Source: Candidatus Marinacidobacterales bacterium
GTDB taxonomy: Bacteria; Acidobacteriota; Vicinamibacteria; Marinacidobacterales; SMYC01
Reading direction: 5' to 3'
DNA length: 64,000 bases
Assembly: GCA_965224085.1 (NCBI GenBank)
Contig: CBDCYI010000004.1
Location: forward strand, 1,792,001 to 1,856,000
The position numbers and the translations under genes are program-made. Shown here piece after piece: positions 16,122-63,250 of this stretch. The notes beneath the pieces are model-generated. The model had not been told where the DNA came from. It made no database searches and saw only the letters and a list, made by a program, of their open reading frames with translations. Every line of letters starts with the position of its first letter. The stretch's first letter is position 1.

Positions 16122-17481
16122 GGTTCTGTTACATAATAATATTTACAAATACGAGTTCGGTAAGAATTAATACCCTCAATCAAGCACGTCGGGGATGGAG
16201 AGTGTAATTCCAGTTGCCGTGGAAGGGGTGGATTTTGAGTCGAAGCTCCTGCATTTCTTCGTTACTGACCTTCTGGCCTGTCTCGTAGGAGTTCTTGTCC
16301 AGCATGGCCTTTACCTTCAAGCCGGTTCGGGTCTTGGTGTTGCCGATAAGATTGACGACCGCCTCGTAGCTCACGAGAGGCCGTCCTTTCCAGTTCATGC
16401 TGACAAAGGAGAATAGTCGATGTTCGATTTTGTTCCATTTACTGGTTCCCGGTGGATAGTGGCATACGGTGATGGGAATCTTCAGTTGGTCCGATAGCTT
16501 TTGGAGGTGGAGCTTCCAGCCTCGCAGCCGGTTTCCGTTGCTTCCACCGGCGTCCGCGCAAACAAGCAGACGTTTCGCCATCGGATAAGACTTTTTTCCG
16601 AGTATGCGCCACCATCTCCGGATGCTTTCTACCTCGAATTCCGCAGTCTCGTGAGTAATGCCGACGTTGACCAGCGCTTCGTCGCGGGACACATCGTAAG
16701 TCCCATAGGGAATTGCTTTGCCCTCAGCCATACTGGGGAAGTCGTGTACAAGAACCGGCTCACCTCCGCCCTTCTTCTTCCTCCACGTTTTACCCCTGTT
16801 TTCAAAGGCTCCTATCAATTCCTTCTTCTTGGTATCGACGCTCACGACCGGATCCTTGCTTCGCATGAACTTGCTTACTTGCTTGTTGATGTAACGAAAC
16901 TGTTTGTCCCGATCCGGGTGCTGATCCCCTTCCAGTCTCTTCACGTTAGCTTGCAGCGAGTAACCCATTTCTCCTAGGCGTCGAGCAACTGTCACGTGCG
17001 AGACATCGTGACCTTTGCGTTCAAGCTCCTCCGCCATCGCTCTCGTGGACTTGTTCGTCCATTTGAGATGCTTCATCGGGTCGCCGGCGGTTCTTTCGTC
17101 GAGGATCTTCTTCAGCTGCCGCTCGATTCTCGGGTCTAACTCCTCGACCCGCTTTCTCCCCCCGCCAGGCTTGCGCACTCGGGCGCTGTCGTCATCAACT
17201 ATCGGCGCTTTCGCTTTGAGTTCCGCCACGCCCTTCATGATGGTCGGCCGCGACATCCCCGTAAGTCGTGACAGCCGACTGACCCCGCCGCGTCCTTCTT
17301 CAAGCGCCCGTTGAGCCACAAAAACACGCGCTTGCGCTTCGTTCAACGTCCCCAGCACCCTCAACCAGTGACGCTCAGACTCTGGTACCTTTCGATCTGT
17401 TGCCATCCTCGTATAGTCTCGCAACCAGCAGAGGATAGCAGCAATGACAGTGTATTGTAAATATTAATATGTAACATGCCC
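16122..17481 (-). mobile_element. ISAzo13-family insertion sequence
   Basis: Imperfect 27-bp IRs (GGTTCTGTTACATAATAATATTTACAA / GGGCATGTTACATATTAATATTTACAA) flanked by a TTA duplication. Confidence 0.9.
16180..17406 (-). CDS. ISAzo13-family transposase
   Basis: GYSLQANVK, HPDRDKQF, SVDTKKKE, ADAGGSNG, HYPPGTSKWNKIEHRLF, FHGNWNY. Confidence 0.92.
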   Translation of the reverse strand: MATDRKVPESERHWLRVLGTLNEAQARVFVAQRALEEGRGGVSRLSRLTGMSRPTIMKGVAELKAKAPIVDDDSARVRKPGGGRKRVEELDPRIERQLKKILDERTAGDPMKHLKWTNKSTRAMAEELERKGHDVSHVTVARRLGEMGYSLQANVKRLEGDQHPDRDKQFRYINKQVSKFMRSKDPVVSVDTKKKELIGAFENRGKTWRKKKGGGEPVLVHDFPSMAEGKAIPYGTYDVSRDEALVNVGITHETAEFEVESIRRWWRILGKKSYPMAKRLLVCADAGGSNGNRLRGWKLHLQKLSDQLKIPITVCHYPPGTSKWNKIEHRLFSFVSMNWKGRPLVSYEAVVNLIGNTKTRTGLKVKAMLDKNSYETGQKVSNEEMQELRLKIHPFHGNWNYTLHPRRA

Positions 17482-17515: not shown

Positions 17516-18751
17516 ATGCGCGTGAATACGCGCCGGATAGGACTGTCTCTGGGGGCCGACCTCTGCTGGCCTACCTGCTACGAAGAAATCCTCAGCCGCT
17601 TTAATCCAAGATTCGAGATCCGTGGGGAGACCATTGGCTTCGACGTCACGCGGCTCGATATCGAGCCTTTCGACCTTCGAAGACCCTGTCCCTATGACGT
17701 AGTTCTAGACCGCGTGACCCATTGGTACCACACGAGCCGCGAGTGGATCAAGAAATCCATCCTCATGGACGGTCTCTATGTGCTGAACAACCCCTGGTCG
17801 ATCCAGTCGATGGAAAAGCAGACGACCTATTGCGCGATGATGCATCTCGGCCTTCCCGTCCCAGAGACGTGGATGTTGCCTCCCAAGGAGTACGAGCCCA
17901 CGCCGGATCTCGAGTCGACGCTCGAGCGCTACGCGAAGCTATTCGATCTCGGTGAAGTGGGGACCCAAGTCGGCTACCCGCACTTTATGAAGCCGTATGA
18001 TGGCGGCGCCTGGGTCGCGGTGACCCGGATTGCGAACGAAGAAGCGCTACGAGAAGCCTACGAGAAGAGCGGACGGCGTGTGATGCATCTGCAACGAGCC
18101 ATCGAGCCCTTCGACCTGTTCGTTCGATGTCTCGGCATCGGGCCCGAGCTACGCTTCATCCGATACGACCCCGACGCGCCGCTCCATGCACGCTACCGCA
18201 CGGATCGTGACTTCCTGACGAAGGAGGAAGAGGGCCTTGTGCGCGACATGACGCTCATGATCAACGCCTATTTCGGATGGGACTTCAACTCATGTGAAGT
18301 CATCCGTAAAGACGGCGTCTTCTACCCCATCGATTTCGCCAACGCTTGCCCAGACGCCCAGGTAACATCGCTCCACTATCACTTCCCCTGGCTCGTCAAA
18401 ACAATGCTTCAGTGGTCACTCTACTGCGCAGCGACAAAACGCAAGATGCGTACAAATATGGACTGGAACCTCTACGAGGAGATCCGAAATAAAAAAGGCG
18501 GCTACCGCGAACGCCTCGCCGCATACGGCGCCGTAGCTAGAGACCGATTCGAAACGGAGGCCTTCGACACCTTCCGCGAGCAACACTTGAAGCCCCTCGA
18601 CGAGATCACGTGGGACTATTTCGGCACCCCCCGCGCAAAAGAGATAATCCGAGCAAAAGTCGCGACCCTCTTCCCTAAGCACGAGCACGACGAGTTCACC
18701 GACCTGTTCTGGACCCAAATCCAGGAATGGCGCGACAACGAAAATCCGTAA
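17516..18751 (+). CDS. ATP-grasp (RimK/GshB-like) ligase
   Basis: VLDRVTHW, VLNNP, PETWMLPPK, MKPYDGGAW, DFNSCE, IDFANACPD; GTG 17522 is a possible start. Confidence 0.8.
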   Translation: MRVNTRRIGLSLGADLCWPTCYEEILSRFNPRFEIRGETIGFDVTRLDIEPFDLRRPCPYDVVLDRVTHWYHTSREWIKKSILMDGLYVLNNPWSIQSMEKQTTYCAMMHLGLPVPETWMLPPKEYEPTPDLESTLERYAKLFDLGEVGTQVGYPHFMKPYDGGAWVAVTRIANEEALREAYEKSGRRVMHLQRAIEPFDLFVRCLGIGPELRFIRYDPDAPLHARYRTDRDFLTKEEEGLVRDMTLMINAYFGWDFNSCEVIRKDGVFYPIDFANACPDAQVTSLHYHFPWLVKTMLQWSLYCAATKRKMRTNMDWNLYEEIRNKKGGYRERLAAYGAVARDRFETEAFDTFREQHLKPLDEITWDYFGTPRAKEIIRAKVATLFPKHEHDEFTDLFWTQIQEWRDNENP

Positions 18752-18752
18752 G

Positions 18753-18920
18753 AGCGATCAATATTCAAAAAAGCGTAACGCAAAGGCGCAAAGTCGCCAG
18801 GGCGCGAAGGGAAAAAACGAGGAGCGTGAGAGCTTCTGCTCTTCTTGCGTTTGTTTGCGTTTGTTTGCGTCTTTGCGGCTTGGCGCCTCGGCGTTAGGCT
18901 TTTTTGGAATATTGATCGCT
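18753..18920. repeat. Long imperfect palindrome (REP/MITE-like), copy 1
   Basis: About 55-bp arms: AGCGATCAATATTCAAAAAAGCGTAACGCAAAGGCGCAAAGTCGCC vs reverse complement AGCGATCAATATTCCAAAAAAGCCTAACGCCGAGGCGCCAAGCCGC; lies between convergent genes. Confidence 0.85.
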
Positions 18921-18928
18921 TTTTCGTT

Positions 18929-20515
18929 TTATTTGCGGATGGTTGGATAGGTTATTCCTAGTTGTTCCAGGTATGTGTCGTATTTGGATTCGTCGTAGTA
19001 GAACGGACGCATTTGTTCGCGGAAAGTGTCCATTTTTTCTTTGTTTAGATGGATGGCGGGGGGGTCGCTGGCGGTGATGAACGGAGTGTATTGGTGATCG
19101 CTTGTTTGTTCGTCTTTGAAGTATTTCCAAGCTTGGTTGACTAGCTCTGGGTTCATGAATAGCTCGAGGGCGGTCATTGCCATCACTTTGGCGCCGGCGG
19201 TGGCGCCTTTGTGGGCGATGGGGGTGGCCATGGCGACGGCGTTGGCCCAATGATGGCCGGGGCCGCCGGGGACGTTGGACGGGAAGCGCATGGTTACGGT
19301 GGGAACGGTCCACGAGATATCACCAATATCGTCGGACCCCCCGCCGAGCCGGGGCTCTTCTACTGGCCCGCGTAGCTCACCGAGCTCCGTTTTGAGTCCT
19401 TCCTCCTCGACGCCCAGCTCAGCCTGCAGACCTTTGGCAAGAGCCACATCCGCGTCGCTCCACTCCGGGAGGCCGACCTTCTCGATGTTCTTCCACATGG
19501 TTTCGGCGACGACTTTGTTGAAGTGACGGGGATAAGCGTGTCCGAGAATGCGCCAGCTGACTTCGGTATCCGTCATCTGCGCAGCGGCTTGGGCCACGGT
19601 GTTCCCGATATCGAAGAGACTCTCCAGATGCTCATGGTCGAGCTCTCGGAAGTAGTACCACACCGATGCTACGGATGGTACGACGTTCGGCTGATCTCCA
19701 CCATTCGTGATGACGTAATGCGTCCGCTGCGGAAGGCGCAGGTGTTCGCGGCGGAAGTTAATGGCCGTATTCATGAGCTCCACGGCATCGAGCGCGCTGC
19801 GGCCGCGCCATGGGGCACCCGCGGAATGCGCGGATTCGCCGAGAAAGGTGTACTCGACCGAGATGAGCCCGTTGCCGCGTCCCTGGCCCCAGCTGACGGT
19901 GAAATCGTTCGAGACATGCGTGAACATGCAGATGTCGACGTCCTTGAAGTTCCCGTCGCGAACGAACCATGCCTTGGTTGCCACGAGCTCTTCGGCCACA
20001 CCCGGCCAAAGTTTCAGCGTGCCTTTTATGCCCTCGCGCTCCATGATGCGCTTGACGACGAGCGCGGCCGTCACGTTCACAGCCTGGCCCGAGTTGTGAC
20101 CTTCGCCGTGGCCCGGTGCGCCCTCGACGAGCGGGTCATGATAGGAAACGCCCGGCTTTTGCGAAGCTTTTGGGATACCGTCAATGTCGCTCCCGAAGGC
20201 GATGACGGGCTTTCCTGAACCCCAGGTGGCCATCCATGCCGTAGGGATGCCTGCGATGCCTTCTTCGAGTTCGAAGCCGTGCTCGCGGAGCACGGCGACA
20301 AGGTAGCGCGACGTCTCAAATTCCTGAAAGCCGAGCTCCCCAAAGCTGAAAATCTTGTCCACCATCACTTGGGTGAGCTTGGCCATCTCACCTACTTGTG
20401 CGCTGGCCGCCTCTTTCAGGTCATCGACTTCGTCGCTCGCGGCTGCGAAGGACGCGCCCATCAGAGCCAACGCGAGCATCCGTGAGATGAAACCGAGCGT
20501 ACGCTTTACCAACAT
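18929..20515 (-). CDS. M20-family amidohydrolase (AbgB-like) with signal peptide
   Basis: ELGFQEFET, GHGEGHN, GVAEE, AHSAGAPWRGRSALDAVELM, GGDQPNVVP, GGSDDIGD. Confidence 0.88.
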   Translation of the reverse strand: MLVKRTLGFISRMLALALMGASFAAASDEVDDLKEAASAQVGEMAKLTQVMVDKIFSFGELGFQEFETSRYLVAVLREHGFELEEGIAGIPTAWMATWGSGKPVIAFGSDIDGIPKASQKPGVSYHDPLVEGAPGHGEGHNSGQAVNVTAALVVKRIMEREGIKGTLKLWPGVAEELVATKAWFVRDGNFKDVDICMFTHVSNDFTVSWGQGRGNGLISVEYTFLGESAHSAGAPWRGRSALDAVELMNTAINFRREHLRLPQRTHYVITNGGDQPNVVPSVASVWYYFRELDHEHLESLFDIGNTVAQAAAQMTDTEVSWRILGHAYPRHFNKVVAETMWKNIEKVGLPEWSDADVALAKGLQAELGVEEEGLKTELGELRGPVEEPRLGGGSDDIGDISWTVPTVTMRFPSNVPGGPGHHWANAVAMATPIAHKGATAGAKVMAMTALELFMNPELVNQAWKYFKDEQTSDHQYTPFITASDPPAIHLNKEKMDTFREQMRPFYYDESKYDTYLEQLGITYPTIRK

Positions 20516-21467: not shown

Positions 21468-21929
21468 GTGCGGATTCGAACACATTTGGTTCTTCTCGCA
21501 AGCATCGCAGTGGCTATCCTCTGGGGATGCAATTCGAACAGCCAGGGAACACTCCCCGATGCTGACTTTTTCGCGAGCGACGGTCAGGGTTTCTCCATGC
21601 GCGTCGGAGAAACTGCGGGCGTTCAAACGGTCAGCGCCATCAACGTCATCCGCTTCAGCGGCGTCCTCAACGACAGCCGGTGCCCCGAAAGCGTGCAATG
21701 CGTAGACGCGGGCTTCGCGACGATCGTGCTCGCGGTGCAATCCGCCCTCGCCGTCACTGAAGTACAGATTCAAGTCCCCCCAAGTGGTGAGGCGCAGATG
21801 GTGGTCGAAGAGCTCACCATCGACGTGATCGAGCTACGTCCCGCAGCCCAAGAAGGCGTCGAGATCAATTTACTCGACTACGCAGTGGCGTTGAGGGTAC
21901 GGCAGACTAGCGACCTCGGCGTTACGTAA
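21468..21929 (+). CDS. Hypothetical lipoprotein
   Basis: Signal peptide ending ILWGC; DSRCP..VQCV.AG motif. Confidence 0.75.
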   Translation: MRIRTHLVLLASIAVAILWGCNSNSQGTLPDADFFASDGQGFSMRVGETAGVQTVSAINVIRFSGVLNDSRCPESVQCVDAGFATIVLAVQSALAVTEVQIQVPPSGEAQMVVEELTIDVIELRPAAQEGVEINLLDYAVALRVRQTSDLGVT

Positions 21930-22043
21930 GAAACGCAAAGTCGCCAGGGCGCAAAGAAAAAAACCAGAAGAGCAAGACGGTTTCTGATTTTCTTTCTTTT
22001 CTTGCCTTTTGCGTTACGCTGTTTCTAAGATTGATCCGCTTTC
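21930..22043. repeat. Palindromic repeat family, copy 2
   Basis: AACGCAAAGTCGCCAGGGCGCAAAG left arm; right arm reverse complement AGCGGATCAATCTTAGAAACAGCGTAACGCAAAAGGC; between convergent genes. Confidence 0.75.
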
Positions 22044-24782
<2,739 letters not shown>

Positions 24783-24849: not shown

Positions 24850-25016
24850 GAAAAAAATTCAATGTTAAGAAAAGCGTAACGCCAAGGCGCAGAGAGGCAA
24901 AGGCTCGCATCCCAACCCCAAAAGATCATGCAGACCGATGGAGAGAGCGTCAGATCTCCTCTCCTCTTTTTTTTCTTTGCGCCTTTTACGCTTGTTTGCT
25001 ACTGATACTTTGTTTT
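24850..25016. repeat. Palindromic repeat family, copy 3 (degenerate)
   Basis: TCAATGTTAAGAAAAGCGTAACGCCAAGGCGCAGAGAGGCAAAG ... CTTTGCGCCTTTTACGCTTG. Confidence 0.7.
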
Positions 25017-63046: not shown

Positions 63047-63250
63047 GAGCTTTCCGATCTCAGCTGCGATTCAATTCTTTTACCCATGTTTCACATCTCC
63101 TTTTTTGCGTAATGGGCGTACTGTGCGCTCGTGTCGTCAGAGTGTGAGGAATCGTCACCGACTCGCAGCGTCGAGCTCCGCGATGAGGCGCTCGAGAGAA
63201 GGGTCGCCGGGACGGAGCTTCAGAAGCCGGCGTCCGTAGCGGCTCGCCTC

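What the first reader, a model, noticed from the sequence alone, without database searches (positions are those of the whole stretch)
18360..19260. Strand-asymmetric synonymous G->A skew centred on a palindromic element
Seen: both genes converging on the 18753-18920 palindrome change codon usage near it. In the last ~107 codons of the M20 gene I counted about 29 A-ending against 6 synonymous G-ending codons (8/8 Lys AAA, 5/5 Gln CAA, four Leu CTA), whereas mid-gene Lys is often AAG. In the ATP-grasp gene A:G-ending codons go from about 13:31 (first ~128 codons) to about 28:21 (last ~129). C-ending codons are retained, so this is not simple AT drift. The + strand is A/C-rich left of the element and T/G-rich right of it. 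Inference: C->T changes accumulated on the strands running 5'->3' away from the element. That fits repeated local single-strandedness (nicking and strand displacement, outward antisense transcription, or local replication initiation) driven by the element or a trans-acting nuclease. The polarity is opposite to that expected from 5'->3' resection of a double-strand break. This may be the footprint of an undescribed repeat-targeted DNA-processing system.
Basis: partly seen in the sequence, partly recalled or inferred. Interest (0 to 1): 0.8.

Follow-up and report, generated by a model that had tools for sequence, protein, structure and literature searches.

The report
Old strand-skewed codon patch at gene ends
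Two genes that end head-to-head at a hairpin repeat in a marine acidobacterium really do swap G-ending for A- and C-ending codons near their ends, but the pattern is old, occurs at many gene ends without the repeat, and is absent at most other copies, so the repeat is unlikely to be its cause.

Summary
The locus is the strongest strand-skew switch in the 6.87 Mb genome. The flanking sequence is identical in contigs of three independent studies.

- The skew is not recent. The amidohydrolase (M20) tail is equally skewed in a congener (G002), and the other gene's tail is shared with G001 and G003. Other genera lack it.
- It arose in place. None of 79 other homologues looks like a donor.
- At 4-fold sites G is replaced mainly by C, and T is depleted too. 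The pattern is G+T depletion on the sense strand, not pure G>A.
- Other copies of the repeat (18 flanks in this genome, 36 in relatives) show no excess beyond 150 nt. Skews persist where the repeat was deleted and are absent beside related repeats in two other genera.
- Similar patches sit at gene tails (G-poor) and gene heads (C-poor) genome-wide. Seven of the eight tested have no repeat arm nearby. They are shared within the genus.

Best reading (confidence about 0.4): long-term local strand-specific mutation pressure at gene boundaries, probably from untranslated transcription. The repeat is at most a modifier.

The parts
17516..18751 (+). Similarity to D-Ala-D-Ala ligases is only weak.
   Evidence: ORF. 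No Pfam family at E<=0.001. NCBIfam D-Ala-D-Ala ligase models score 15-20 bits against cut-offs of 243-495. PDB D-Ala-D-Ala ligases reach E 3e-4. Orthologues were found in 12 of 40 relatives searched, all in the same family.
18330..18751 (+). G/T-poor (A/C-rich) 3' tail of the + gene; moderate skew
   Evidence: Last 129 codons A:G:C:T = 27:21:62:9 against 12:31:53:20 in the first 128. At 4-fold sites G is 13% against 32%; at 2-fold purine sites A is 46% against 38%. Rank 192 of 3,242. Shared with G001 and G003.
18753..18920 (.). Imperfect palindromic intergenic repeat. Outer ends GATCAATATT; arms made of CGCAAAG-type units, then an A run (T run in the other arm). It sits exactly between the two stop codons.
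   Evidence: Inverted repeats I1-I4. Folds at -103.6 kcal/mol, z -10.6 (+ strand) and -72.5, z -7.25 (- strand). About 13 loci in this genome. In five relatives 16 to 89 matches each. No Rfam family reaches its threshold. Terminator-like hairpin plus T run at 18877-18900; no promoter-like site inside the element.
18929..20515 (-). M20-type amidohydrolase gene
   Evidence: TIGR01891 amidohydrolase at 179 bits, above the 153.75 cut-off. Pfam M20_dimer.
18932..19300 (-). Strongly G/T-poor 3' tail of the M20 gene; the core of the finding
   Evidence: G3 is 1, 3, 1, 4, 4, 3 per 20 codons over the last 120 codons, then 5 to 9. 2-fold purine sites are 90% A against 37% in the body; 4-fold sites are C 65% and G 8%. 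The profile is the same in G002 and absent in 12 orthologues of other genera and in 79 further homologues.
21919..22011 (.). Second copy of the same repeat family in the window, with little flanking skew
   Evidence: BLAST hit at C4:1813919-1814011. Sequence. S = 0.12.
24856..25000 (.). Third copy of the repeat family in the window, with no flanking skew
   Evidence: nhmmer hit at C4:1816858-1816920, E 7e-13. Sequence. S = 0.03.

Best explanation
The skew is a real, old feature that evolved in place in this genus of marine Vicinamibacteria-class Acidobacteriota. It is the most extreme local example of a wider class of patches. In a small share of genes in this genome (about 1-2% of gene ends pass the cut-offs used), 0.3-0.7 kb next to a gene boundary is depleted of G and T on one strand. 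Gene tails are G/T-poor on the sense strand. Gene heads are C/A-poor on the sense strand. In both cases the strand that runs 5'->3' away from the boundary is G+T-rich.

I read these patches as footprints of long-lasting, local, strand-specific transition pressure (C>T and A>G) on a strand that is repeatedly single-stranded. Ordinary codon preference then filters the result.

The most likely source of single-strandedness is an inference, not shown here. I propose the non-template strand of untranslated transcription running outward from the boundary. That means read-through or antisense RNA crossing a convergent junction, or the 5' part of a transcript before translation couples. Such RNA is prone to form R-loops.

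The palindromic repeat is an ordinary intergenic hairpin repeat, probably a two-way terminator-like element. It is at most a local modifier, for example by letting untranslated read-through continue. It is not the target of a dedicated DNA-processing system.

Shown: reality, age, in-place origin, the base pattern, the genome-wide class, and the weak link to the repeat. Inferred: mutational rather than selective cause, and the transcription/R-loop mechanism. Whether the pressure still acts is unresolved.
For: 1. Both transition types shift on the same strand by similar odds.
- M20 tail: 2-fold purine sites 90% A against 37%; 2-fold pyrimidine sites 86% C against 70%.
- 35 pooled G/T-poor tails: 67% A against 34% genome-wide, and 89% C against 71%.
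- 27 pooled C/A-poor heads show the mirror image: 51% T against 29%, and 82% G against 66%.
- With G excluded, the A:C:T shares at 4-fold sites of the M20 tail (11:39:5) are close to the genome's own (11:42:14 %). A rate change plus normal codon preference therefore suffices.

2. Position and polarity.
- Sense G>A-type windows are 25 of 3,458 gene tails against 169 of 128,473 mid-gene windows.
- Sense C>T-type windows are 12 of 3,458 heads against 82 of 128,473.
- Junction flanks favour this polarity in all four gene orientations: S>0.3 in 14 of 2,618 junctions against S<-0.3 in 2.
- Heads of operon-first genes (n 1,509) are shifted to G+T over about 100 codons. Operon-internal genes (n 657) are shifted only in the first 20 codons.

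3. Composition is not held by purifying selection.
- Pooled synonymous divergence within the genus is the same in patches and in the rest of the same genes: 174/1,013 against 403/2,368, and 146/780 against 319/1,855.
- A>G changes per A site are not reduced in G/T-poor patches: 26/106 against 25/141.

4. Protein change is faster in the tails on the branch to this genus.
- M20 identity to other genera is 0.856 in the body and 0.799 in the tail. Those genera among themselves show 0.856 and 0.854.
- The + gene shows 0.754 and 0.575, against 0.808 and 0.735.

5. The patches sit at the same place in G001 and G002 for all 8 further genes tested. They are graded or absent in other genera.
Against: - No RNA data exist for this organism, so no outward transcript is shown.
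- No sigma-70-like promoter is found in the element.
- In the within-genus polarised counts, G>A per G site is not clearly raised in G/T-poor patches: 8/38 against 35/230. A>G changes (26) outnumber G>A (8). By my rough model this fits a decaying relic (about 6:17) better than a steady state under continuing pressure (about 14:20; binomial p about 0.02). The pressure may therefore be past or episodic.
- Against a mere relic, the cmk tail patch is shared across three genera that are only 73-75% identical in protein. That needs maintenance.
- For the M20 tail alone, synonymous divergence from G002 is lower than in the body: 10/110 against 59/359. That hints at constraint there.
- At 4-fold sites where other genera have G, this genome has C in 8 of 12, and A in 1.
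- Both tails of a convergent pair cannot both be dominated by the partner's read-through unless untranslated RNA is far more mutagenic per transcript than translated RNA. That is an assumption.
- The two tails of convergent pairs are not correlated genome-wide (rho -0.09).
- All genome-wide counts rest on my own ORF caller. Some composition outliers are low-complexity or tandem-repeat coding.
Confidence: 0.4

Rival explanations
1. Selection on RNA composition. C-rich, G-poor 3' ends load the termination factor Rho, or otherwise keep the RNA unstructured, so that transcription stops before it runs into the neighbour. C-poor 5' ends avoid premature Rho loading.
For: - The M20 tail is C-rich and G-poor on the sense strand: about 31-33% C against 12-18% G.
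- At 4-fold sites G is replaced mostly by C.
- A Rho gene is present.
- Patches stay at the same gene positions in sister species, and the cmk patch across three genera.
- M20 tail synonymous divergence from G002 is lower than in the body: 10/110 against 59/359.
- C>T per C site is lower in G/T-poor patches: 18/247 against 57/481, p 0.07.
- C-rich, G-poor Rho sites are established knowledge. Of the papers in the listing I saw only titles and the starts of abstracts.
Against: - The patches lie inside translated frames, where ribosomes should block Rho.
- They are 300-700 nt long, several times a Rho loading site.
- Pooled synonymous divergence is not reduced.
- A>G changes are not reduced: 26/106 against 25/141. 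With mutation unchanged, selection strong enough to hold the composition should cut them to about 0.4-fold (my model).
- Heads are the exact complement of tails, with A depleted as well as C. A Rho argument does not predict that.
- The + gene's tail has only a weak C excess over G.
Confidence: 0.2
2. One reading: the palindromic repeat, or an enzyme that acts on it, repeatedly makes the flanking DNA single-stranded. The route could be nicking with strand displacement, local replication starts, or outward promoters in the repeat. Deamination then rewrites the flanks.
For: - The genome's strongest locus sits at a full copy, and the switch of polarity is centred on it.
- The M20 tail skew and the insertion are both confined to this genus. 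The insertion replaced the last 7-8 codons of M20.
- Two other loci of about 13 have extreme patches on one side: the UDG gene (D_left 0.35) and the GT2 head (third-position z -4.8).
- UDG C3 depletion is strongest in the two species that keep the repeat or a remnant: C3/T3 28/85 and 32/79, against 48/65, 42/67 and 54/62.
- Outer flanks of 54 other copies are shifted in the predicted direction in the first 300 nt: 0.049 against 0.012, Mann-Whitney p 7e-4.
- The genome holds 76 matches to Y1 (HUH) single-strand DNA transposases, a possible trans-acting nickase.
Against: - The excess at other copies is confined to the first 150 nt, where the element's own A and T tracts lie. At 150-300 nt it is 0.015-0.019 against 0.009-0.017 in controls.
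- Ten or eleven of about 13 loci in this genome show nothing.
- UDG and GT2 skews are present in all five species of the genus, including those where the repeat is deleted. G009 and G010 carry a related repeat at the GT2 site with normal codon usage.
- Seven of the 8 other patch genes tested have no repeat arm within 2 kb (coordinates). The eighth, the bla junction, has only the terminal motif.
- Hairpin stability of convergent spacers does not predict skew.
- The locus is not at a global skew extreme.
- No similarity was seen between the repeat and any other genomic site (13 BLAST segments only). Hits were not cross-checked against the coordinates of the Y1 transposase copies.
Confidence: 0.1
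3. A time-limited burst in the stem lineage of the genus, now over. Possible causes are a spell of weak uracil repair or an active DNA deaminase, acting on DNA that is single-stranded at gene boundaries.
For: - Within the genus, G>A per G site in G/T-poor patches is not raised (8/38 against 35/230), and reversions dominate (26 A>G against 8 G>A).
- Patches in M20, UDG, GT2, SpoU and purQ are strong in this genus and weak or absent outside it.
- The family-4 uracil-DNA glycosylase gene is itself one of the most skewed genes. This may be coincidence.
Against: - The cmk and HlyD patches are also present or intermediate in genera g6 and g7 at 73-77% protein identity, where synonymous sites should be saturated.
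- C>T per C site is still about 1.7-fold raised in C/A-poor patches: 17/65 against 60/383, p 0.049. T>C is raised in G/T-poor patches: 7/13 against 24/89.
- The changes are mostly synonymous, so they accumulated under selection over time and not in one hit.
Confidence: 0.12
4. A recombined patch from a donor whose genes have this codon usage throughout, or an assembly or composition artefact.
For: Tail protein identity to other genera is lower than body identity. An import from a more distant donor could produce that.
Against: - Of 79 other M20 homologues, none has a G-poor, C-rich tail or body. Only two AT-rich genomes reach tail A/(A+G) 0.57-0.66, and both are T-rich as well.
- The nearest relative in the body (0.875) is also the nearest in the tail (0.816).
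- The sequence is identical in contigs from 3 studies.
- The effect is at synonymous third positions, not in amino-acid content.
Confidence: 0.03

Closest known systems
Transcription-associated strand asymmetry (excess C>T and A>G on the non-template strand). Named from my own knowledge; the listing shows reviews such as PMC10030826, of which I saw only the title and the start of the abstract.
   Same: Both transitions act on one strand. The G+T-rich strand is the one that would be non-template for a transcript leaving the boundary. The effect is strongest near the start of operon-first genes.
   Different: Here it comes as short, very strong patches in a small share of genes (about 1-2% of gene ends), not as a gene-wide trend that follows expression. 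In gene tails it sits on the strand opposite to the gene's own transcription. No transcript data exist.
[quoted passage not shown]
   Same: Skews of opposite sign at gene heads and tails. They affect 4-fold sites and amino-acid choice. Both a mutational and an adaptive explanation are open.
   Different: The sign is reversed: fungi are C-biased at the 5' end and G-biased at the 3' end of the coding strand. The fungal pattern is general across genes. Here the average effect is small and the strong cases are rare outliers. This is a bacterium, with coupled translation.
Bidirectional strand asymmetry around a point: bacterial replication origins and human CpG islands (Polak and Arndt 2009, PMC2817419; abstract read)
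   Same: The same polarity as at an origin. The strand leaving the centre 5'->3' is rich in G and T on both sides.
   Different: The scale is 0.3-0.45 kb, not up to a megabase (CpG islands) or whole replication arms (origins). The locus is not at a cumulative-skew extreme of its contig. Most copies of the central element have no such flanks.
Intergenic palindromic repeats of bacteria (REP/BIME, ERIC, Correia-type elements; recalled, no call)
   Same: A multi-copy imperfect palindrome of about 100-250 bp lying between genes, often right after stop codons. It is present across a whole genus and family. Insertions, deletions and rearrangements occur at its sites.
   Different: No sequence relation to any named family was tested. 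Rfam gives nothing above threshold. None of those families is known to me to be flanked by rewritten codon usage.
Rho-dependent terminators (C-rich, G-poor loading sites; the listing only, titles and starts of abstracts)
   Same: The sense RNA of the M20 tail is C-rich and G-poor just upstream of a gene end. Rho is encoded.
   Different: The region lies inside a translated frame. It is several times longer than a loading site. There is no sign of reduced substitution away from the favoured bases.

Membership tests
Intergenic palindromic repeat family (REP/MITE-like) | Many related copies in one genome and in relatives | tested here: met
   13 BLAST segments. 12 arms at E<=4e-6 by nhmmer. 89, 67, 16, 39 and 16 matches in G001, G002, G003, G004 and G009.
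Intergenic palindromic repeat family (REP/MITE-like) | Imperfect inverted repeat able to form a long hairpin | tested here: met
   Arms of 43 nt at 79% and 26 nt at 88% complementarity. -103.6 kcal/mol, z -10.6.
Intergenic palindromic repeat family (REP/MITE-like) | A cognate transposase (for REPs, a Y1/HUH enzyme) linked to the repeat | tested here: inconclusive
   76 Y1_Tnp matches in the genome. The repeat matches no other genomic site (13 segments), but hits were not cross-checked against the Y1 copies' coordinates. Adjacency was not examined.
Two-way intrinsic terminator | G+C-rich hairpin with an A run before it and a T run after it, placed between convergent stop codons | tested here: met
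   The element runs from 2 nt after one stop codon to 8 nt before the other. A runs are at 18767-18772 and T runs at 18901-18906. The scan flags a hairpin plus T run at 18877-18900 on the + strand only.
Two-way intrinsic terminator | Transcripts end there | not testable with these tools
   No RNA run holds the region.
Rho-dependent terminator (loading site in the gene tail) | C well above G over about 80 nt or more of the RNA | tested here: met
   M20 sense strand: GC skew +0.26 to +0.43 on the + strand over 18800-19299, so C/G is about 1.7-2.5. The + gene shows only 1.2-1.4.
Rho-dependent terminator (loading site in the gene tail) | The site is free of ribosomes (untranslated) | tested here: not met
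   The whole patch lies inside the reading frames.
Rho-dependent terminator (loading site in the gene tail) | Composition held by selection, so fewer substitutions away from the favoured bases | tested here: not met
   A>G 26/106 against 25/141. Pooled synonymous divergence 174/1,013 against 403/2,368. The M20 tail alone is lower: 10/110 against 59/359.
Replication origin | Skew switch with the leading-strand pattern leaving the centre | tested here: met
   Left A/C-rich, right G/T-rich.
Replication origin | Lies at the extreme of the cumulative skew of the replicon | tested here: not met
   The C4 cumulative GC skew has its minimum at 1,952,026 and its maximum at 63,133. The locus is at 1,810,800.
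Deaminase hypermutation cluster (kataegis-like) | Strand-coordinated C>T hits at all codon positions in one recent lineage | tested here: not met
   The changes are mostly synonymous. They are shared by species about 9% apart in DNA. G is replaced by C at 4-fold sites.
Transcription-associated strand asymmetry | C>T and A>G both enriched on one strand | tested here: met
   2-fold purine and 2-fold pyrimidine sites shift together in tails and, mirrored, in heads.
Transcription-associated strand asymmetry | A transcript whose non-template strand is the G+T-rich strand | not testable with these tools
   No RNA runs. No promoter-like site in the element.

The most novel reading that the evidence does not exclude
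The hairpin repeat is more than a bystander. In long-lived insertions it nucleates recurrent outward single-strandedness. The route could be nicking by one of the genome's many HUH (Y1) enzymes, or stalling and uncoupling at the hairpin. Over evolutionary time this rewrites several hundred bases of both flanking genes. That would be a repeat-anchored local mutator not described in bacteria. The evidence leaves this open for three reasons: the three strongest repeat-adjacent patches all have the predicted polarity; the M20 skew and the insertion arose on the same branch; and UDG skew is strongest in the species that keep the repeat.
Probability: 0.08. Interest if true: 0.8.

Novelty: new variant of a known kind. 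Interest (0 to 1): 0.45.

Why it matters
If the patches are mutational, a bacterial lineage carries fixed sub-kilobase zones at gene boundaries where one DNA strand has long been more exposed than the other. The exposure would be strong enough to push 2-fold purine sites from 37% to 90% A and to speed protein change. That would give a sequence-only marker of untranslated or antisense transcription (or R-loops) in organisms that cannot be grown. It would also be a bacterial counterpart to the head and tail skews of eukaryotic genes.

If the patches are selected, they would mark a termination or insulation signal written into coding sequence.

Either way, the claim scored 0.8 at the first stage, a repeat-targeted DNA-processing system, is not supported. 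The locus should be treated as the extreme case of a broader, still unexplained pattern.

My four full-text searches listed no description of such local gene-end patches in bacteria. That is a limited search, not proof that none is in print.

Tried and rejected
- **Expression data.** One search for runs: no RNA holder listed. The outward-transcript idea could not be tested.
- **Laying contigs.** This confirmed the flanks. It gave too few strain differences to read a spectrum. No contig bridges the palindrome.
- **Donor patch.** Rejected.
- **Overlapping gene as the cause of constraint in the M20 tail.** A 139-codon alternative frame (18894-19313, -) is open here and in G002 (136 codons). It reads as Arg/Pro/His-rich filler, as expected of any G-poor sequence. 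I gave it no weight.
- **Promoters in the repeat.** None by the consensus scan.
- **Known RNA family.** Only a sub-threshold microRNA-hairpin match, 28.7 bits against 96.
- **Global origin.** Rejected.
- **Hairpins in general as drivers.** No correlation.
- **All-position composition scans.** They pick up Lys-rich and Pro/Ala-rich coding stretches (C5:1701151, C5:2138251, C5:1346226) and a 15-nt tandem repeat (C4:46741-47460). For this reason I moved to third-position statistics. Those lists may still hold a few such cases.
- **First polarisation of M20 against other genera.** It lost many saturated sites. The 2-fold/4-fold table and plain compositions were more useful.
- **Terminal motif GATCAAYAWT alone.** 36 occurrences, 23 outside called genes. 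Outer-flank D has a mean of 0.066, which includes the finding's own two flanks. Superseded.
- The script crashed after printing its table, so its statistics were not produced. I redid them.
- **Per-lineage counts in UDG and GT2.** Too few to decide whether loss of the repeat is followed by reversion.
- **Supplementary files of papers.** Not opened. For the two papers I cite I saw the abstract and outline only. For all others I saw search listings only.

Full report
**What is there**

The window lies in contig C4 (1,792,001-1,856,000) of a 6.87 Mb, 60% G+C genome. Titles of related records place its close relatives in the marine Vicinamibacteria-class Acidobacteriota ('Candidatus Marinacidobacterales').

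Two genes converge at the site.
- A 411-codon gene lies at 17516-18751 (+). Its likeness to ATP-grasp D-Ala-D-Ala ligases is only weak.
- A 528-codon M20-type amidohydrolase gene lies at 18929-20515 (-). It matches TIGR01891 at 179 bits, above the cut-off.

Between their stop codons sits a 168-bp imperfect palindrome (18753-18920). It folds into one long hairpin: -103.6 kcal/mol, z -10.6.

**Check of the observation**

- In the last 107 codons of M20 there are 29 A-ending and 6 synonymous G-ending codons. Lys is AAA 8 of 8 and Gln is CAA 5 of 5. There are four CTA.
- In the other gene A:G-ending codons go from 12:31 in the first 128 codons to 27:21 in the last 129.

The + strand is A/C-rich left of the element and G/T-rich right of it.

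Against the whole genome:
- The left/right switch statistic is the maximum of 342,758 positions: 1.26, SD 0.16, next 0.94.
- The M20 tail is the most extreme of 274,386 windows.
- M20 ranks 3rd of 3,242 genes for the tail-versus-body rise in A3/(A3+G3). The other gene ranks 192nd.
- The junction is first of 361 convergent junctions.

Contigs of runs from three studies match both flanks without a single difference. The sequence is therefore real.

**Age and origin**

The skew is not a recent event in this genome.
- G002, a congener with 95% protein identity, has the same M20 tail: A3/G3 is 28/13 against 28/12 in the last sextile. It also has the same 20-codon profile and keeps the M20-side half of the repeat.
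- Twelve M20 orthologues from other genera have 1-10 A3 against 30-41 G3 there.
- For the + gene, G001 and G003 share the A-rich tail. There is no excess of G>A on the branch to this genome: 8 G>A against 7 A>G over 18415-18715 in comparison with G001.
- The repeat site is a place of rearrangement. G001 keeps only the first 20 nt or so, followed by other DNA. G003 lost the repeat and most of M20. In G002 other DNA follows the half repeat, and the + gene is reduced to a fragment 14 kb away.
- The insertion replaced the last 7-8 codons of M20.

A donor with this codon usage is not in sight.
- Among 79 further homologues, no G+C-rich one has a G-poor tail.
- The nearest relative in the body is also the nearest in the tail.

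The tails did evolve faster in protein on the branch to this genus.
- M20 identity to other genera is 0.856 in the body and 0.799 in the tail. Those genera among themselves show 0.856 and 0.854.
- The + gene shows 0.754 and 0.575, against 0.808 and 0.735.

**What kind of change it is**

It is not simply G>A.

| M20 site class | Tail | Body |
|---|---|---|
| 2-fold purine, % A | 90 | 37 |
| 2-fold pyrimidine, % C | 86 | 70 |
| 4-fold, % G | 8 | 29 |
| 4-fold, % C | 65 | 47 |
| 4-fold, % A | 18 | 12 |
| 4-fold, % T | 8 | 12 |

Where other genera have G at a 4-fold site, this genome has C in 8 of 12, T in 2, A in 1 and G in 1.

The sense strand is therefore depleted of both G and T. Equivalently, the opposite strand is depleted of C and A. 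Once G is set aside, the remaining shares at 4-fold sites are close to the genome's usual ones. Two raised transition rates on one strand plus ordinary codon preference would be enough.

**The repeat family and its other copies**

The element belongs to a family with conserved ends (GATCAATATT) and arms built of CGCAAAG-type units.
- It has about 13 loci here, two more of them in this window.
- It has many more in relatives: 89, 67, 16, 39 and 16 matches in five genomes.
- No Rfam family matches above threshold. No promoter-like site is seen in it.

Of the 12 other loci here, one has a strong one-sided skew: the UDG locus, with D_left 0.35. The rest have S from -0.07 to 0.18, against a control mean of 0.02-0.04 and SD of about 0.1.

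| Flanks | 0-150 nt | 150-300 nt | Beyond 300 nt |
|---|---|---|---|
| 36 outer flanks in relatives | 0.087 +/- 0.019 | 0.019 | about 0 |
| 18 outer flanks here | 0.065 | 0.015 | -0.03 to 0.03 |
| 5,500 control flanks | 0.016 | 0.009 | about 0 |
| Finding's locus, left | 0.23 | 0.22 | 0.18 in the third bin, then 0.01-0.08 |
| Finding's locus, right | 0.42 | 0.32 | 0.04 in the third bin, then about 0 |

The small first-bin excess lies where the element's own outer A run (left) and T run (right) sit. I do not read it as rewritten coding sequence.

Two natural experiments speak against dependence on the repeat.
- The UDG gene (C3-poor over its whole length) and the head of a GT2 glycosyltransferase gene are skewed in all five species of the genus. 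That includes species in which the neighbouring repeat is deleted.
- G009 and G010 carry a related repeat at the GT2 site with normal codon usage.

One point goes the other way. UDG is most skewed in the two species that keep the repeat or a remnant of it.

Across 361 convergent junctions, spacer hairpin stability does not predict tail skew (rho -0.075, p 0.16).

**A genome-wide class**

I used third positions only and my own ORF calls.
- G-poor/A-rich windows with normal T are 25 of 3,458 gene tails against 169 of 128,473 mid-gene windows.
- The mirror type (C-poor/T-rich) is 12 of 3,458 gene heads against 82 of 128,473.
- A combined A+C versus G+T score gives 65 genes with strongly G/T-poor windows, mostly within 40 codons of the stop. 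It gives 48 genes with strongly C/A-poor windows, mostly within 40 codons of the start.
- Junction flanks favour this polarity in all four gene orientations.
- Heads of operon-first genes are shifted over about 100 codons.

The patch genes are ordinary housekeeping genes: purQ, a SpoU methylase, coaE, cmk, an FtsW/RodA homologue, DsbD and an HlyD-type protein.
- For all 8 tested, the patch is present at the same place in G001 and G002.
- In other genera it is graded. The cmk patch is present in g6 and g7, HlyD and purQ are intermediate, and g9 has none.
- Seven of the 8 have no repeat arm within 2 kb (coordinates).

**Mutation or selection**

Within the genus, pooled synonymous divergence is the same inside and outside patches: 174/1,013 against 403/2,368, and 146/780 against 319/1,855.

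I polarised changes by majority among three species.

| Change, by patch type | In patch | Rest of gene |
|---|---|---|
| G/T-poor: A>G per A site | 26/106 | 25/141 |
| G/T-poor: G>A per G site | 8/38 | 35/230 |
| G/T-poor: T>C | 7/13 | 24/89 |
| G/T-poor: C>T | 18/247 | 57/481 |
| C/A-poor: C>T | 17/65 | 60/383 (p 0.049) |

- Selection strong enough to hold the composition should cut A>G to about 0.4-fold, with about half the observed number of purine changes. That is not seen.
- A steady state under continuing mutation pressure predicts about 14 G>A to 20 A>G. A decaying relic predicts about 6 to 17. The observed count is 8 to 26.
- The numbers are small and the models are mine.
- The M20 tail alone is more conserved than its body: 10/110 against 59/359.

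I conclude that a mutational origin is more likely than selection on RNA composition. Whether the pressure still acts is open. The cmk patch, shared across genera, argues for long maintenance.

**Mechanism**

The base pattern (C>T and A>G on one strand) and the polarity are those of a strand that is often single-stranded. The G+T-rich strand leaves the boundary 5'->3'.
- For gene heads this is the non-template strand of the gene's own transcript near its start.
- For gene tails it is the non-template strand of RNA that enters the gene from its 3' end. That means read-through from a convergent neighbour, or antisense starts.
- Such RNA is untranslated and, by established knowledge, prone to form R-loops.

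This step is inference. No RNA data exist and no promoter is seen in the repeat. The idea also needs untranslated RNA to be far more mutagenic than translated RNA.

The repeat may modify the outcome, for instance as a leaky two-way terminator. The data do not support it as the target of a special DNA-processing system. The genome's 76 Y1 transposase matches keep a nicking scenario formally open.

**Comparison with what is known, and verdict**

The closest known phenomena are:
- transcription-associated strand asymmetries;
- the opposite head and tail GC skews of fungal genes (PMC3315797, abstract only);
- origin-like bidirectional asymmetries (PMC2817419, abstract only).

None of these is a short, very strong, gene-boundary patch in a bacterium. 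My four full-text searches listed no such description.

I rate the finding as a real and unusual pattern. It is a new variant of a known kind, with an unproven mechanism.

Noticed in passing
window 21919-22011 and 24856-25000: Two further copies of the same palindromic repeat family flank the radical-SAM gene at 22044-24782. Neither has notable flanking skew (S 0.12 and 0.03).
   Followed up: partly
window 16180-17424 (-): An ISAZ013-type DDE transposase gene lies directly upstream of the + gene. Genes of the same 414-codon length with identical codon-window counts recur at many places in the genome.
   Followed up: no
G000, whole genome: There are 76 matches to the Y1 (HUH, IS200/IS605-type) transposase family, dozens of them near-identical. 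These enzymes act on single-stranded hairpin DNA. No link to the repeat or to the patches was shown.
   Followed up: partly
L037:1259-1966 (G000:C11:1398759-1399466, -): The family-4 uracil-DNA glycosylase gene is C3-depleted over its whole length in all five species of the genus (C3/T3 from 28/85 to 54/62). In the other family-f1 genera the gene totals are roughly 75-107 C3 against 16-34 T3. This is curious for an enzyme that removes deaminated cytosine.
   Followed up: partly
L018:3088-4458 (G002): In G002 the half repeat after M20 is followed by a 452-codon ORF on the other strand. The + gene is reduced to its first 67 codons about 14 kb away. In G003 the repeat and most of M20 are gone, leaving two short pieces of its 5' end. 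The repeat site is a rearrangement hot spot.
   Followed up: partly
L057 (G002), upstream of the GT2 gene: The repeat copy there carries a run of more than 15 AAG units in its centre.
   Followed up: no
G000:C4:348716-348949 (-): A second ORF has a Rho RNA-binding domain (41.9 bits, above the cut-off). It lies next to a gene with no Pfam match whose head is among the most C/A-poor (C4:349305-350378, z -4.8).
   Followed up: no
G000:C5:1791181-1795416: scpB and cmk both have strongly G-poor tails in a row, just upstream of rpsA. The cmk patch is conserved in three genera.
   Followed up: partly
L198:1541-2260 (G000:C4:46741-47460, -): This ORF ends in about 18 tandem 15-nt units (an A-E-P-E-A-type repeat). 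It has no C at 80 consecutive third positions, which makes it a false 'patch' in composition scans.
   Followed up: yes
G000:C5:1751541-1753254: A methyltransferase gene and a Beta-lactamase2-family gene converge with a 46-nt spacer. Both have G/T-poor tails (summed z 6.43, second of 361 junctions). The spacer holds only the repeat's terminal motif ATTATTGATC.
   Followed up: partly
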